Source: Chiloscyllium plagiosum (Eukaryota). From it: a stretch of 41,879 nt of DNA. The position numbers and the translations under genes were made by a program. The stretch lies in assembly GCF_004010195.1 (NCBI RefSeq), contig NC_057719.1:47822093-47863971 (forward strand), written 5' to 3'. The notes beneath the pieces are model-generated. The model searched no databases. It was not told the DNA's origin and was given only the letters and a program-made list of their open reading frames with translations. Positions 1 to 7,949 of the stretch are shown here, piece by piece (the first letter of the stretch is position 1; the number at the start of each line of letters is the position of its first letter).

Positions 1-273
1 TAACACATCCCGAGCATGTAAGAGACTTAAATATACACCCTGGTTAGTTGTAGTTTAGATTAGTAGATAGTTGAGTTTTGTCTGTTTGTTCTTTTTTGTT
101 GTTTTTTTTTTCGGGTTTTTTTTTTGTTGTTTTGTTTTTTTTTGTCAAATTTTGGCTATTGTATATTTGAGCTAATTGTATATCAATGTTTATATCTGAG
201 AGTTTTGTTTATTTTTGTAAACTTGTAAAAATGTTAAATTTCTAATAAAAATATCTATATAATGAAAAAAAAA
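1..273 (+). mobile_element. 3' UTR and poly(A) tail of a LINE, probably L1/Tx1-like, abutting the R2 fragment
   Basis: T-rich tract, AATAAA at 244-249 and an A-run at 265-273, at the point where the R2 frame ends. Family assignment is inference. Confidence 0.5.
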
Positions 274-1797
274 TGCTCAATTTTATTTTTAATTTTTGTA
301 TTAAACCTTTCCTCTTTAATTTATTTTCTATCTTTCTTTTTAAATGATTGGTTTATAATCTCTTCCATAATTTAAGTATAATCATTTGTCAAAACCTGTT
401 TGTTTTTACTTATACTATCCTCAATAATATTTATTAATTCCAATGTGGATTTATTAATCGAATTTGTATTTCTCTCTCCCCTATAATTACCTACATTCCT
501 ATTTTCATTCAAAATTCCTTTGACTAATAATCTTCTCATGTCGGATATTTGCTTAGGGGTTTTAGTATCTAATCTTTCAGCGATTAATTTATTAATATTT
601 CTATGATCATTGAACTCCTTTTCGAATCTCTTTAACAATTCTACTTTGGAGCTGGACCAAACTCCTTGTCTACTTTTACTAGACTTTCCATGAGGACTAC
701 CTTAAATTCTCTTAACATTTCTTACCATGGGATGCATGTGTCTCTCATGCTGTCCCAGCCCAATGGACGTAGTAAATTTTAGTGGACATGATTCACGTTG
801 GAAAATATTATCTTCCCTGCTAACTTCTTTCTTACCCTTACATTTGACATAGTGACATGCAACCGCATGATAACTACTTTCCTAATCACATTTAACACAC
901 CTGACTCTAACCAATTTTATCCCCTTACATTGGTTCAGATGTTCATGAAATTGACCAGTCGTATTATAGATATTCTGCCAAAATTGGCATATAAAATTGT
1001 CTGTAGAATATTTAATAATTATATCTATTTTACAATTATTTTGTATAGTTGTAGTAATAACCGTAGCTTGTACAATCTCATTCTCTTGTTCTCTACTTAG
1101 ACTAAAATCGAAGGGCCCTTTAAAATTCAAGTTAAAAAATGTCTGATTGTCAAGAAGACAAGATCTGTGAGGGGCCATCTCACTAGATCTTTCAACTCGA
1201 CTCTCTCCACACTCGGCACCAAAACTGGTTACCTTGTGCCTGCCAGAGGGCAGCCGTGCCGAGAGTACTCTGAGGGTCTCATCCATTTGCGTAGAGATGG
1301 ACGATCGTTTCCTTGCTTGGCTAATGCATTTTGCACATGGAGCTGCCAAAAGCAACCGTGTGGGGCGGTTATTCTCCCGGTTTCCCACCCAACCAGAATT
1401 TAAAAAGTCTGACATAATCGCCCCTCTTCAAAAAAGGGTTTTACTCAAAATTGACCGTAGGTCACCAGCCATCTCATTTTTTCTAGGTCGTATTCACCGG
1501 CTTGGAAAGAGTAATACCATAGCAACAGAATAAACAGATTAAAACTATTCCCTGTAGTTAAATCTGACCCAGATAAAATCAAAGCTAAAATCAGAGCCAA
1601 TAAAACCCAGGTAAAAGCAGTTAAAATACCACTTATCCATTTATCGGGTTTCCTCTACCAAGCCGTTACCAGGGGGAACCACATGGAGGTTCAACCTACT
1701 TCGCAGCCGATAAAAATACGTAAAGACAACTGCGAAGGTGACTACACAGGCAGCCGTTGGGAGACCAACCAACAAAAAATCTGTAGTCACATCCCCA
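274..1797 (-). mobile_element. R2 non-LTR retrotransposon (A clade), 5' portion: 5'UTR with ribozyme plus N-terminal ZnF-ZnF-ZnF-Myb coding region; decayed
   Basis: ORFs 882..1415 and 372..638 are one reading frame broken by stops (882-884, 702-704, 372-374). Read-through gives FICQFWQNIYNTTGQFHEHLNQC / RCVKCD*ESSYHAVACHYVKC / FQRESCPLKFTTSIGLGQHERHMHPMVRN / VWSSSKVELLKRFEKEF..NINKLIAERLDTKTPKQISDMRRLL. These match the CCHH, CCHC, CCHH zinc fingers and Myb domain of vertebrate R2 proteins. Confidence 0.93.
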
Positions 1798-1798
1798 T
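1484..1798 (-). ncRNA. HDV-like self-cleaving ribozyme of the R2 5'UTR (probably inactive)
   Basis: Minus-strand pairings: P1 ATGGGGA 1798-1792 / TCCCCCT 1677-1671; P2 TAGGTTG 1698-1692 / CGACCTA 1490-1484; P3 ACC 1690-1688 / GGT 1680-1678 closing L3 TCCATGT; P1.1 GG 1670-1669; P4 CGGCTTGG 1665-1658 / CCAAGCCG 1505-1498; J4/2 GTGAA 1497-1493. Confidence 0.85.
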
Positions 1799-2150
1799 AA
1801 ACTGACTGGTGTGTAGTGCCAGGTTTACCTCCCTTTGATTTTGGTAACATCTTCAATCCTCTTGTCCTTATAGATCATCCTTGTACCGAAGGAGGATTTC
1901 AAGACCATGGCCAGCAACTCTTCATTTCTGCCCTGACTTCCCTCCTCGCTAGACTGAGTTACGTCTTTACCTCAGGTGGTACTAACCATCTTTGCACCCA
2001 CTTTTTTCTTTCTCACCTATTACCTGTCAACCTCATTTGCCAATGCTGTGGCAAATTGTTTTTTCTTGGTAAACGTTGAAGCAATGATTACATTCATTAC
2101 CTCAATGATTTCTACCGCCTCTACCAATGATGCCCATTTCTTGTGTACGA
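1799..2150 (-). mobile_element. Old CR1 LINE ORF2 fragment; the insertion site of the R2
   Basis: Minus strand gives degenerate EAVEIIEVMNVIIASTFTK and LAMVLKSSFGTRMIYKDKRIEDVTKIKG, then GGTAAACCTGGCACTACACACCAGTCAGTTTA, which resembles the CR1 KPGNYRPVSL motif and ends at the R2 5' junction. Confidence 0.65.
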
Positions 2151-2340: not shown

Positions 2341-2865
2341 GAGTCCAACACCAGCATCTCCTCAACTCAAGTTAGTGTCAGCAATGCTAACTTGGTATTC
2401 CTTTGGTAGCATTAGCCTGAGCAACATGCTGCTTTAAACTTCTGTGCTGTATAGGAGGCCTTAGGAAAACACTTTGCAGACTGCATTACTATCCTGTTAA
2501 AGCCTGAATCCTTAATAAATCAGAAGTGCAGACTTCCAACTGAAGGCTCCTGATAATGAATGGCTCAGTGCTGGAGAACACTGGCAGTTCAGCAGTCTGG
2601 TGAGCAGTGTAGCCTCCAGGAGGGAAGTGTTACTCCATTTCGATTGGAGTCTGTCAGACTTTAACCTGAGGAGGGAGTGGTTTTACCTTATCAAAAAGCT
2701 TAATACCTTGAGTCTGGCAGACCACCTCCTGTCACTACTCAGGTGGATAGAAGAGTCTAGTTCCAACGTGGTCAAAATAATGACTGCAGATGCTGGAAAC
2801 CAGATTCTGGATTAGTGGTGCTAGAAGAGCACAGCAGTTCAGGCAGCATCCAAGGAGCTTCGAAA

Positions 2866-2900
2866 TCGACGTTTCGGGCAAAAGCCCTTCATCAGGAATA
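2866..2900 (-). ncRNA. Minimal hammerhead ribozyme core (PLE type)
   Basis: Minus strand CTGATGA-AGGGC-TTTT-GCCC-GAAAC-GTC. Confidence 0.7.
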
Positions 2901-3240
2901 AAGGCAGTGAGCCTGAAGCGTGGAGAGATAAGCTAGAGGAGGGTGGGGGTAGGGAGAAAGTAGCATAGAGTACAATGGGTGAGTGGGGGAGTGAATGAAG
3001 GTGATAGGTCAGGGAGGAGAGGGTGGAGTGGATAGGTGGAAAAGGAGATAGGCAGGTAGGACAAGTCCGGACAAGTCATGGGGACAGTGCTGAGCTGGAA
3101 GTTTAGAACTAGGGTGAGGTGGGGGAAGGGGAAATGAGGAAACTGTTGAAGTCCACATTGATGCCCTGGGGTTGAAGTATTCCGAGGCGGAAGATGAGGC
3201 GTTCTTCCCCCAGGCGTCTGGTGGTGAGGGAGCGGAGGTG

Positions 3241-3673
3241 NNNNNNNNNNNNNNNNNNNNNNNNNNNNNNNNNNNNNNNNNNNNNNNNNNNNNNNNNNNN
3301 NNNNNNNNNNNNNNNNNNNNNNNNNNNNNNNNNNNNNNNNNNNNNNNNNNNNNNNNNNNNNNNNNNNNNNNNNNNNNNNNNNNNNNNNNNNNNNNNNNNN
3401 NNNNNNNNNNNNNNNNNNNNNNNNNNNNNNNNNNNNNNNNNNNNNNNNNNNNNNNNNNNNNNNNNNNNNNNNNNNNNNNNNNNNNNNNNNNNNNNNNNNN
3501 NNNNNNNNNNNNNNNNNNNNNNNNNNNNNNNNNNNNNNNNNNNNNNNNNNNNNNNNNNNNNNNNNNNNNNNNNNNNNNNNNNNNNNNNNNNNNNNNNNNN
3601 NNNNNNNNNNNNNNNNNNNNNNNNNNNNNNNNNNNNNNNNNNNNNNNNNNNNNNNNNNNNNNNNNNNNNNNNN
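3241..3673. other. Assembly gap (N run)
   Basis: Run of N. Confidence 1.
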
Positions 3674-3692
3674 CCCTTCAGGCTCTCTGCCT

Positions 3693-3730
3693 TTATTCCT
3701 GATGAAGGGCTTTTGCCCGAAACGTCGATT
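3693..3730 (+). ncRNA. Minimal hammerhead ribozyme core (PLE type)
   Basis: CTGATGA (3699-3705), stem II GGGC-TTTT-GCCC, GAAAC (3719-3723), GTC cleavage triplet. Stem I pairing is weak. Confidence 0.7.
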
Positions 3731-3859
3731 TTGCCTGTCCTCGGATGCTGCCTGAATTGCTGTGCTCTTCCAGCACCACTGATCCAGAATCTGGTTTCCA
3801 ACATCTGCAGTCATTGTTTTTACCTCGTTGATGGAAACCGCAGAAAAGTCAGGCAAAAA

Positions 3860-6470: not shown

Positions 6471-7556
6471 ACGGGTCCTTATCAACTTATGGAGTTGACT
6501 TTTCTCCAAATGGCTGCTCCCAGGATTGAATCCCAAGCATTTTGGATGCAGTCAGAAGGCAAATATGCATCAGCATTCATGCATTTTGAGCATAGGTTGG
6601 ATACACAGGTTCCAACACTGATCTGTAGATTAGAACATTAGAGTTTAAAATTAACATAGACGTCCATCTCAATAATAGGTATAAAACAGATGAGTCATAT
6701 TCACTTGACAAATGCCAGTCAGATATTTCTAACATTGAAATTATTTTAACAAAAGTAATGTGCTTCTCTTTATTTACTCTTTTCATTTTCTCCCCACCTT
6801 TTACCGGAGAGGGCAAACAGGACTATGTTTAGGTTCTGAATTGAGAACAATATAGTACTTGAATTTCTGCAATCAAAGGAAACTTGCACGCTTCATATTG
6901 GTCTACTTTTTTTCACTTCTCAGCCTTCTGATTTCTCTTCCATTTTGTCAGCTTTTCTGGCTTCCATTTCAAATTTGCCCTGGTCTAATCCACCACCTCA
7001 GCTACTCACCTGTTGTCTGAAAAATGGAAAGTACTGGATATAATCAGCAGGTTAGGCTGCATTTGTGAAAAAAATGTAACGTTTGATTGATCTTCATAAG
7101 TACACTATTTCTTGAATATACTGGGTGATTTGTTTAATTATATTTACATTATGTTAATATCACTAAAAGTTAGCTTATGTTTGGAAGCAGTTTAAGGAGC
7201 GTCCCTCTCTTTTGTATATATGTCTTTTCCTCTTTGATGTGTAATTTCACCCTTACAGACGCTGACTGACATGACGGTGTTTCCAACATTTTCTGCTTTG
7301 ATTTAGTCCAAAATATTAGGTTGCCTACGTCTTCTCAATAGATTTAAAAGATGCCATGTTGGTACCATTTTATAAACTGCTCAGTCCATTTGTATGGAAC
7401 ACTCGTGATTTACATTTATCAGAGACTGTGTAGCATTTTCCAAACAAGTAGACTGAACAGAACGCGAAAGTTTGATGAAGAACCAGATCAAGCCAGACTT
7501 TAAACAAACAGGACAGTCCTTTCTCCGTTCACAGCACCATTTAATACCATCAGTCC

Positions 7557-7943
7557 AACATCGGAGGCCTCCTCAGCGCGCAGCGCCCTGGGACATCGGA
7601 AGTCTCCTTAGGCACAGCATCCTGGGATATCGGAGGCCTCCTCAACGCGCAGCACCCTGGAATATCGGAAGTCTCCTTCGGCACCGCATCCTGGGATATC
7701 GGAGGCCTCCTCAGCGCGCAGCACCCTGGGATATCGGAAGTCTCCTTCGGCACCGCATCCTGGGATATCGGAGGCCTCCTCAGCGCGCAGCATCCTGGGA
7801 TATCGGAAGTCTCCTCAGGCACAGCATCCGAGGATATCGGCAGTCCGATATCAGAAGCCTCCTCAGCGCGCAGCATCCTGGGATATCGACAGTCCGATAT
7901 CGGAGGCCTCCTCAGCGCGCAGTACCCTGGGATATTGGCAGTC
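7557..7943. repeat. GC/CpG-rich minisatellite with a 69-bp unit made of two related 34-35-bp halves, about 5 units
   Basis: Alternating GGGATATCGGAGGCCTCCTCAGCGCGCAGCACCCT and GGGATATCGGAAGTCTCCTTCGGCACCGCATCCT; gives the 23-aa periodicity in ORF 7472..7954. Confidence 0.95.
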
Positions 7944-7949
7944 TTGTGG

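What the first reader, a model, noticed from the sequence alone, without database searches (positions are those of the whole stretch)
274..1798. 5'-complete A-clade R2 retrotransposon inserted outside 28S rDNA in a shark-like genome
Seen: one minus-strand frame with three zinc fingers plus Myb, only a few stops and no frameshift, preceded by a ~380-nt 5'UTR. The 5' junction abuts a decayed CR1 (...CCAGTCAGTTTA|TGGGGATG); no 28S target (ACTCTCTTAAGG/TAGCCAAA) is present. Known: R2 is normally strictly 28S-specific, A-clade members carry three ZnFs, and off-target copies are usually rare or 5'-truncated. Inference: this is an off-target full-length insertion, or a cartilaginous-fish R2 lineage with relaxed specificity. 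The RT/endonuclease half may continue left of the window beyond the LINE tail at 1-273.
Basis: partly seen in the sequence, partly recalled or inferred. Interest (0 to 1): 0.8.

Follow-up and report, generated by a model that had tools for sequence, protein, structure and literature searches.

The report
Dead shark R2 copy outside rDNA
This is the front end of an old, broken, full-length copy of R2, a jumping gene that normally inserts only into ribosomal RNA genes; it sits in another repeat, likely landed there by a targeting error, and is one of dozens of such strays in this shark genome that record where R2 lands when it misses.

Summary
Confirmed. Window 1797-274 (minus) is the 5' third of a full-length, three-zinc-finger (lineage A) R2 of the family published from bamboo sharks (R2-1_CPu, R2-1_CPl). 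The RT and endonuclease parts lie left of the window, split by four later insertions. The copy is dead (stops, frameshifts, mutated RT and zinc ligands), lies in a decayed CR1-type repeat, and is shared with a second species. It is no one-off: three 3'-UTR patterns give 103 matches genome-wide. Nor has the lineage simply lost specificity. Six relatives have 28S on both sides, this copy's nearest relative carries a 946-base 28S tail, and stray sites resemble the 28S target more than chance. A self-contained HDV-like ribozyme fold, supported by covariation, predicts the sharp 5' end the strays share. Best reading: leaky targeting by rDNA-resident masters, leaving a fossil series. One middle-aged group has no 28S tails (0 of 14), so a phase outside rDNA is not excluded. 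The scan has reported the same stray R2 family on at least eight other stretches of this genome; my paper searches found no published account of the strays.

The parts
274..1797 (-). 5' third of a full-length lineage-A R2 retrotransposon. The rest runs left of the window to G000:C10:47814100, split by four later insertions.
1485..1796 (-). Predicted HDV-like self-cleaving ribozyme. P1 1796-1792 with 1677-1671; P2 1697-1692 with 1490-1485; P3/L3 1690-1678; P1.1 GG 1670-1669; P4 1665-1659 with 1504-1498; two hairpins in a long J1/2; long P4 insert. The predicted catalytic C reads T at 1496.
   Evidence: alignment of 28 copies, structure string, pair counts and controls; activity not tested
1416..1797 (-). 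5' untranslated region, about 382 nt
   Evidence: ATG at 1415 aligns with the start of P0003
276..1415 (-). N-terminal part of the R2 reading frame; in-frame stops at 884, 704, 374 and 323, no frameshift
927..992 (-). Zinc finger 3; second Cys reads Trp here. The family spacing is C-x2-C ... H-x3-C.
840..902 (-). Zinc finger 2 (CCHC); ligands kept, but a stop lies at 884
732..803 (-). Zinc finger 1 (CCHH); first Cys reads Arg here
525..659 (-). Myb domain
   Evidence: alignment to R2Tg and 9nl2; weak Pfam Myb hit, E 0.036, in the intact relative L226
1..273 (+). 3' tail of a younger LINE (L1-like by recalled motifs; no Pfam hit) inserted into the R2. It holds a 3.2-kb assembly gap left of the window.
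269..285 (+). Target-site duplication of that LINE (12 unambiguous bases plus up to 5 A), repeated at L031:6178-6194. It shows that the two R2 halves are one copy.
   Evidence: read directly
1798..1917 (-). Decayed CR1-type host repeat. Its last 33 bases match 28S positions -35 to -3 at 15 places. AGTTTA at 1803-1798 recurs beyond the far end of the element.

Best explanation
This is a dead, full-length lineage-A R2 retrotransposon that likely came from a parent in a 28S rRNA gene and was likely inserted by R2's own machinery at a site that only loosely resembles the 28S target. Steps: (1) an rDNA-resident parent was co-transcribed with pre-rRNA (inferred from 28S-flanked relatives and from known R2 biology). 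(2) An HDV-like ribozyme lying wholly inside the element cut at the first G of the 5' G-run (fold supported by covariation; cleavage not tested), which explains why strays start at the same base with no upstream 28S. (3) The R2 protein bound a partial target mimic inside a CR1 repeat, nicked it and reverse-transcribed the RNA there (mimicry shown statistically for the family, weak for this single site). (4) The copy was fixed before two related species split and then decayed, collecting stops, frameshifts, an RT motif change (FADD to FAHD) and four insertions (shown). Successive rDNA masters repeated this, leaving a ladder-like fossil series (tree shown; single-master reading inferred).
For: Identity. 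28S link: 23 of 27 exact downstream-target matches follow an R2 3' end (22 by BLAST, 1 by eye); six copies have 28S on both sides; the nearest relative L222 (81.8% over 1012 nt) has a 946-nt 28S tail; 3 of 5 ends of this type have tails. Target mimicry: the upstream flanks of 29 independent stray sites score 2.15 against 1.71 in same-flank controls, p = 0.0006; TAG follows the end in 20 of 36 tail-less ends against 5.5% background; empty copies of one host repeat already carry TAGC at the junction in 10 of 11, so it comes from the target; a second host site was hit in 4 copies lying in three parts of the tree. Ribozyme: 91.3% of 1131 cells pair and 10 pairs change on both sides, against 28-46% pairing in slid controls. 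A second R2 lineage in the same genome instead starts about 28 bases up in 28S sequence in 5 of 7 strays, the common alternative cut site described in PMC3774820. Same-age strays are star-like, with internal branches of 0.002-0.006.
Against: Mimicry at this site alone is marginal (ungapped p = 0.075, gapped p = 0.016), and this copy lacks TAG at its 3' junction. A 6-base repeat (AGTTTA) brackets the R2 plus an adjacent 275-nt repeat fragment; no other copy has a duplication of 6 or more (0 of 28), and I could not tell which element made it. No single position of the upstream motif survives correction for 35 tests (best: A at -22, 21 of 29, p = 0.004), and 23 of 29 sites are not individually above the 95% control level. 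A middle group of subfamilies has no 28S tail in 0 of 14 chromosomal ends, against 16 of 34 in the rest (p = 0.002, grouping made after seeing the data). No rDNA-resident member of this copy's own subfamily survives to be inspected.
Confidence: 0.75

Rival explanations
1. For part of its history the lineage left rDNA and spread from dispersed copies, using host promoters and its self-contained ribozyme. It would be a relaxed or non-specific vertebrate R2.
For: 0 of 16 'middle' ends carry a 28S tail against 26 of 46 others (p = 5e-5; chromosomal only 0 of 14 against 16 of 34). The ribozyme needs no 28S bases. A stray copy, L226, keeps a 1196-codon stop-free frame. Two non-specific R2 families are known in flatworms (PMC5035012, passages).
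Against: The tail-less group sits between older and younger 28S-linked groups in a ladder-like tree, which would need a loss and a regain. Its members are star-like rather than nested. One copy with 105 nt of upstream 28S (L253/L255) is nearest to this group, though only at 75-78%. The window copy's own type has tails in 3 of 5. I found no stray that carried its own non-rDNA flank to a new site; shared flanks were long duplications.
Confidence: 0.15
2. R2 RNA made in rDNA was copied in trans by another LINE (CR1 or L1), as a processed pseudogene is.
For: The genome is rich in LINEs. Strays with long 28S tails, or 28S on both sides, look like retrocopies or orphons of co-transcripts. The AGTTTA repeat could be a LINE-type duplication.
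Against: Strays end at the exact R2 3' end with no poly-A and no duplication of 6 or more (0 of 28). Their sites mimic the 28S target, which another LINE's nuclease would not choose.
Confidence: 0.07
3. The copy was moved as DNA, by recombination or duplication out of an rDNA array, or is an assembly artefact.
For: Some relatives lie in long duplicated blocks (L240-L245, L223/L224). An N gap lies inside the locus.
Against: There is no 28S at either end, and both ends are exact. The host CR1 continues across the insertion. The LINE's target duplication joins the halves. The 5' junction is present in an independent study and in a second species.
Confidence: 0.03

Closest known systems
R2-1_CPu and R2-1_CPl, bamboo-shark R2 elements (PMC13188248, Table S2 rows 171-172; protein P0003, Chiloscyllium punctatum)
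   Same: Same 5' leader starting at a G-run and GTGACTACAG, same ribozyme core and same N-terminal peptide, by eye against the table rows. 41% identity over the N-terminal 416 columns; P0003 nests inside this genome's family in the tree.
   Different: Those entries are 28S-flanked and near intact. This copy belongs to an older subfamily, lies outside rDNA and is dead. The passages and sections I read do not mention strays.
Lineage-A vertebrate R2 proteins with solved structures: R2Tg (9dou, 9nl3) and 9nl2
   Same: Three zinc fingers, Myb, RT, zinc knuckle and endonuclease in the same order. The intact relative L226 matches 9dou_A at E 6e-187.
   Different: ZnF3 in this shark family ends H-x3-C rather than H-x4-H. 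The ribozyme's P1 is predicted to form inside the element rather than with 28S bases at -28.
Non-28S copies of R2Bm (PMC10499050, passage) and non-rDNA R2 copies in five Drosophila species (PMC2718515, passage)
   Same: Off-target copies of an rDNA-specific element; the Bombyx site keeps partial upstream and cut-site motifs.
   Different: These are described as rare, or as often incomplete and 1-2% diverged. Here there are dozens, many full length, spanning subfamilies only 65-75% alike.
R2NS-1_SMed and R2NS-1_CSi, non-specific R2 families of flatworms (PMC5035012, passages)
   Same: Many copies outside 28S.
   Different: Those are D- and C-clade families without 28S insertion. This family is lineage A, keeps 28S-flanked members and shows residual target preference.

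Membership tests
R2 non-LTR retrotransposon | Single ORF: zinc finger(s), Myb, RT, zinc knuckle, restriction-like endonuclease | tested here: met
   All segments are present in order in this copy, broken; RVT_1 E 2e-33 in the intact relative L226. Pfam found nothing in the two decayed R2 pieces of this copy that I scanned.
R2 non-LTR retrotransposon | Myb domain, which separates R2 from Utopia (PMC13188248, section 5) | tested here: met
   Window 659-525 aligns with the R2Tg and 9nl2 Myb.
R2 non-LTR retrotransposon | Insertion at the conserved 28S site (family level) | tested here: met
   23 of 27 downstream-target matches follow an R2 end; six copies have 28S on both sides.
R2 non-LTR retrotransposon | Insertion at the conserved 28S site (this copy) | tested here: not met
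   No 28S at either end; the host is CR1-like. The copy is filed under R2 by descent, not by its site.
R2 non-LTR retrotransposon | 5' HDV-like ribozyme fold | tested here: met
   Double-pseudoknot pairs hold in 91.3% of cells with compensatory changes; the predicted catalytic C is kept in 25 of 28 copies and reads T here.
R2 non-LTR retrotransposon | Self-cleavage and target-primed reverse transcription activity | not testable with these tools
   Needs bench assays; this copy is predicted inactive (RT FAHD, stops, frameshifts).
Lineage (clade) A R2 | Three N-terminal zinc fingers | tested here: met
   Three fingers align with R2Tg and 9nl2; two ligands are mutated in this copy and intact in most relatives; ZnF3 has a variant last ligand.
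Lineage (clade) A R2 | RT closer to lineage A than to lineage D | tested here: met
   L226 scores 627 bits with R2Tg against 225 with 8gh6_A, which I recall as the silkmoth D-clade protein. The tree had no lineage-D row.
Lineage (clade) A R2 | Co-folded ZnF3:2 | not tested
   No structure prediction was run.
Non-specific R2 (R2NS type) | No 28S-inserted members and no target preference | tested here: not met
   28S-flanked members exist and stray sites resemble the target.

The most novel reading that the evidence does not exclude
For a stretch of its history this shark R2 lineage escaped rDNA and propagated from dispersed copies, made possible by a ribozyme that needs no 28S sequence, and later lineages returned to the 28S site. 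It would be the first vertebrate, lineage-A R2 with a host-wide phase, and its fossil series would let the protein changes behind loss and regain of specificity be read directly.
Probability: 0.15. Interest if true: 0.8.

Novelty: new variant of a known kind. Interest (0 to 1): 0.48.

Why it matters
Lineage-A R2 proteins are being developed for gene insertion into human rDNA because of their specificity (PMC11204384, PMC13586686; passages). A vertebrate lineage-A family with dozens of natural, mostly full-length off-target insertions is a ready-made record of which target bases can be dropped in a germ line. Two host-repeat sites with empty and filled versions give direct test substrates. Because rDNA turnover erases old R2 copies, the strays also preserve a series of extinct subfamilies that is normally lost. 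The single copy in this window is an ordinary dead member of that series; the value lies in the set.

Tried and rejected
Pfam on the window read-through found no zinc finger or Myb, and nothing in the decayed pieces left of the window. Rfam found nothing in the window. A plain fold of the first 201 nt was only z = -2.0 and missed the pseudoknot. tblastx of the flanks against all fetched loci found no CR1, and a genome search with the 5' flank returned only itself, so the CR1 label rests on a small profile built from 12 seeds chosen by a recalled motif. Laying raw reads on the stray L226 to measure the share of young copies in rDNA was uninformative: host-repeat reads swamped the ends, and reads like human DNA are dropped. 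The idea that the four copies at the first host site are independent hits was not upheld: their flanks are 95-98% alike, so I counted them once. Utopia and a host zinc-finger gene were rejected (Myb present; all strong hits are R2). The large tree used FastTree because the IQ-TREE options clashed, and 33 of 99 rows were dropped for under 55% coverage. PMC338924 (Bombyx non-28S insertions) was not held. No dN/dS test and no structure prediction were run.

Full report
Observation. The minus-strand frame from window 1472 to 276 reads through with 5 stops and no frameshift. It matches three R2 proteins of solved structure (E 2e-31 to 4e-23) and nothing else below E 0.4. Three zinc fingers and a Myb domain lie at 992-927, 902-840, 803-732 and 659-525, and the ATG matching the start of the bamboo-shark protein P0003 is at 1415. 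The 5' junction is real: a contig from another study spans 1446-2400 without a difference.

The whole copy. The element continues left of the window to G000:C10:47814100. Six collinear blocks, 73-76% identical to the full-length relative L033, cover it end to end. Four later insertions split it. The first, whose tail is window 1-273, holds a 3.2-kb assembly gap, but its target duplication is present on both sides, so the halves are one copy. The copy is dead: 11 stops over 1008 aligned residues, several frame changes, RT motif FAHD for FADD, and one lost ligand each in ZnF3, ZnF1 and the zinc knuckle. It is old: a second species holds the same junction with 36 differences and 7 gaps in about 1030 bases, and its terminal branch is 0.39 against 0.01-0.08 for the youngest copies (frameshift noise inflates this).

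Family. The window stretch found 51 matches among 40 scored of 96 candidates, at 67-75% identity for the long ones; 29 other places start within the first 12 bases. Three 3'-UTR patterns gave 28, 66 and 33 matches, 103 distinct places by my count, some being duplicates on unplaced contigs; I saw sequence for 54 of the 66. The family is the one published as R2-1_CPl and R2-1_CPu (PMC13188248, Table S2 rows 171-172; compared by eye). P0003 nests inside this genome's copies. The tree of 66 rows is ladder-like, from old subfamilies to young ones (33 rows dropped for low coverage).

Link to 28S. Of 27 exact matches to the downstream target, 23 follow an R2 3' end, and 17 of the 27 lie on chromosome-scale contigs. 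Six copies have 28S on both sides, one with at least 1.5 kb each way. Among ends chosen without regard to tails, 28S tails follow 3 of 5 of this copy's type, 23 of 41 younger ones and 0 of 16 of a middle group (10 duplicates collapsed, 10 tandem and 7 endless rows left out). The nearest relative of the window copy, L222, has a 946-nt tail. So its parent most likely sat in rDNA. The empty middle group is the main result against this reading (0 of 14 against 16 of 34 on chromosomes, hand tally that includes two rows without a clean end, p = 0.002; grouping made after seeing the data).

Target mimicry. Upstream flanks of stray copies match 28S positions -35 to -1 better than control windows from the same flanks: mean 2.15 against 1.71 for 29 independent sites, p = 0.0006, with 6 of 29 above the 95% level. 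The best single position is A at -22 (21 of 29; not significant after correction), a base preferred by R2Bm in a published screen (PMC10499050, passage). TAG follows the end in 20 of 36 tail-less ends against 5.5% background. Empty copies of one host repeat carry TAGC at the junction in 10 of 11, so these bases come from the target. At a second host site all 4 filled copies have ACTA upstream, against 2 of 14 empty ones. For the window site alone the match is 15 of 33 with a 2-base deletion (p = 0.075; gapped p = 0.016), and a 2-base offset is the second-strand nick reported for lineage A (PMC12180492, passage). The host is a decayed CR1 that continues beyond the far end. AGTTTA brackets the R2 plus a 275-nt repeat piece that I recall as Penelope-like. 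Since 0 of 28 other copies have a duplication of 6 or more, it more likely belongs to that piece; this is unresolved.

Ribozyme. In 28 aligned 5' ends an HDV-type double pseudoknot pairs in 91.3% of 1131 cells, with 10 pairs changing on both sides (slid controls 28-46%; 27 of 500 shuffles reach the pair count). I drew the structure from these sequences, which favours it over the slid controls. P1 forms between the 5' G-run and a C-run inside the element, so the predicted cut is where strays begin. The predicted catalytic C is kept in 25 of 28 and reads T in this copy, at 1496, in a CpG context. A second R2 lineage in the genome starts about 28 bases up in 28S sequence in 5 of 7 strays, the commonest cut site in PMC3774820 (passages). 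Both patterns point to an RNA intermediate.

What is known. Off-target R2 copies are reported as rare in Bombyx (PMC10499050, passage) and as often incomplete in five Drosophila species (PMC2718515, passage). Two flatworm families are non-specific (PMC5035012, passages). Shark R2s are catalogued as 28S-flanked (PMC13188248: sections 5 and 14, passages, 15 supplement rows with cells cut at 400 characters; its other 15 supplementary files were not read). Searches, and term look-ups in two 2026 reviews, found no account of dispersed shark R2. The library lacks most subscription journals and Repbase, and I did not see the 2025 genome-wide survey of site-specific retrotransposons that one review cites. 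Eight earlier scan notes describe the same family elsewhere in this genome; I tested their main claims here and agree.

Verdict. A real, old, dead off-target copy of a known R2 family. The copy is ordinary; the scale and fossil depth of off-target insertion in a vertebrate lineage-A R2 is the interesting part. Interest 0.48.

Noticed in passing
L152, L153, L155, L157-L160, L162, L164, L165 (unplaced contigs): Head-to-tail tandem R2 junctions: a 3' end runs straight into the next 5' end, often with a short duplicate of the first bases. This could be template jumping or repeated insertion at one site.
   Followed up: partly
L226:1562-5149 (minus): A stray copy with no 28S at either end keeps a 1196-codon stop-free frame, so off-target insertion continued recently; the frame ends at the start of the endonuclease region.
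   Followed up: partly
L038 and L040; also L274, L276: Flanks are 95-99% alike but the R2 bodies of L038 and L040 are only about 72% alike and fall in different parts of the tree. Raw reads suggest this junction is multi-copy (9 reads in a run read at about half-fold cover). Repeated insertion into an amplified unit, or gene conversion.
   Followed up: partly
L256-L262: A second lineage-A R2 in this genome, resembling R2-1_STig by eye, also has strays, most starting with about 28 bases of 28S. L262 and the first-lineage copy L042 end at the same position of a CR1 motif.
   Followed up: partly
L054 and L056: Two dispersed 28S fragments without R2 begin only 9-14 bases upstream of the R2 site. 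Unexplained.
   Followed up: no
window 927-992 and relatives: ZnF3 in this family ends H-x3-C, against H-x4-H in R2Tg, 9nl2 and the second lineage: a CCHH to CCHC change.
   Followed up: partly
L213/L214 (G000:C5:117.58 Mb) and L125, L128: One R2 3' end with a short 28S tail runs into the 5' region of the second lineage; two very short 5'-truncated R2 ends sit directly in 28S sequence.
   Followed up: no
PMC13188248 Table S2 row 166: The white-shark R2 entry has an empty upstream-28S cell and starts with non-rDNA-looking sequence, a hint that strays occur in other sharks.
   Followed up: no
window 7523-7944: A GC-rich tandem array with a 69-base unit and open frames on both strands.
   Followed up: no
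window 2764-3830: A 155-base inverted repeat around an assembly gap, made of a very common repeat that also sits at the R2's 3' end; I recall it as Penelope-like with a hammerhead-like core.
   Followed up: no
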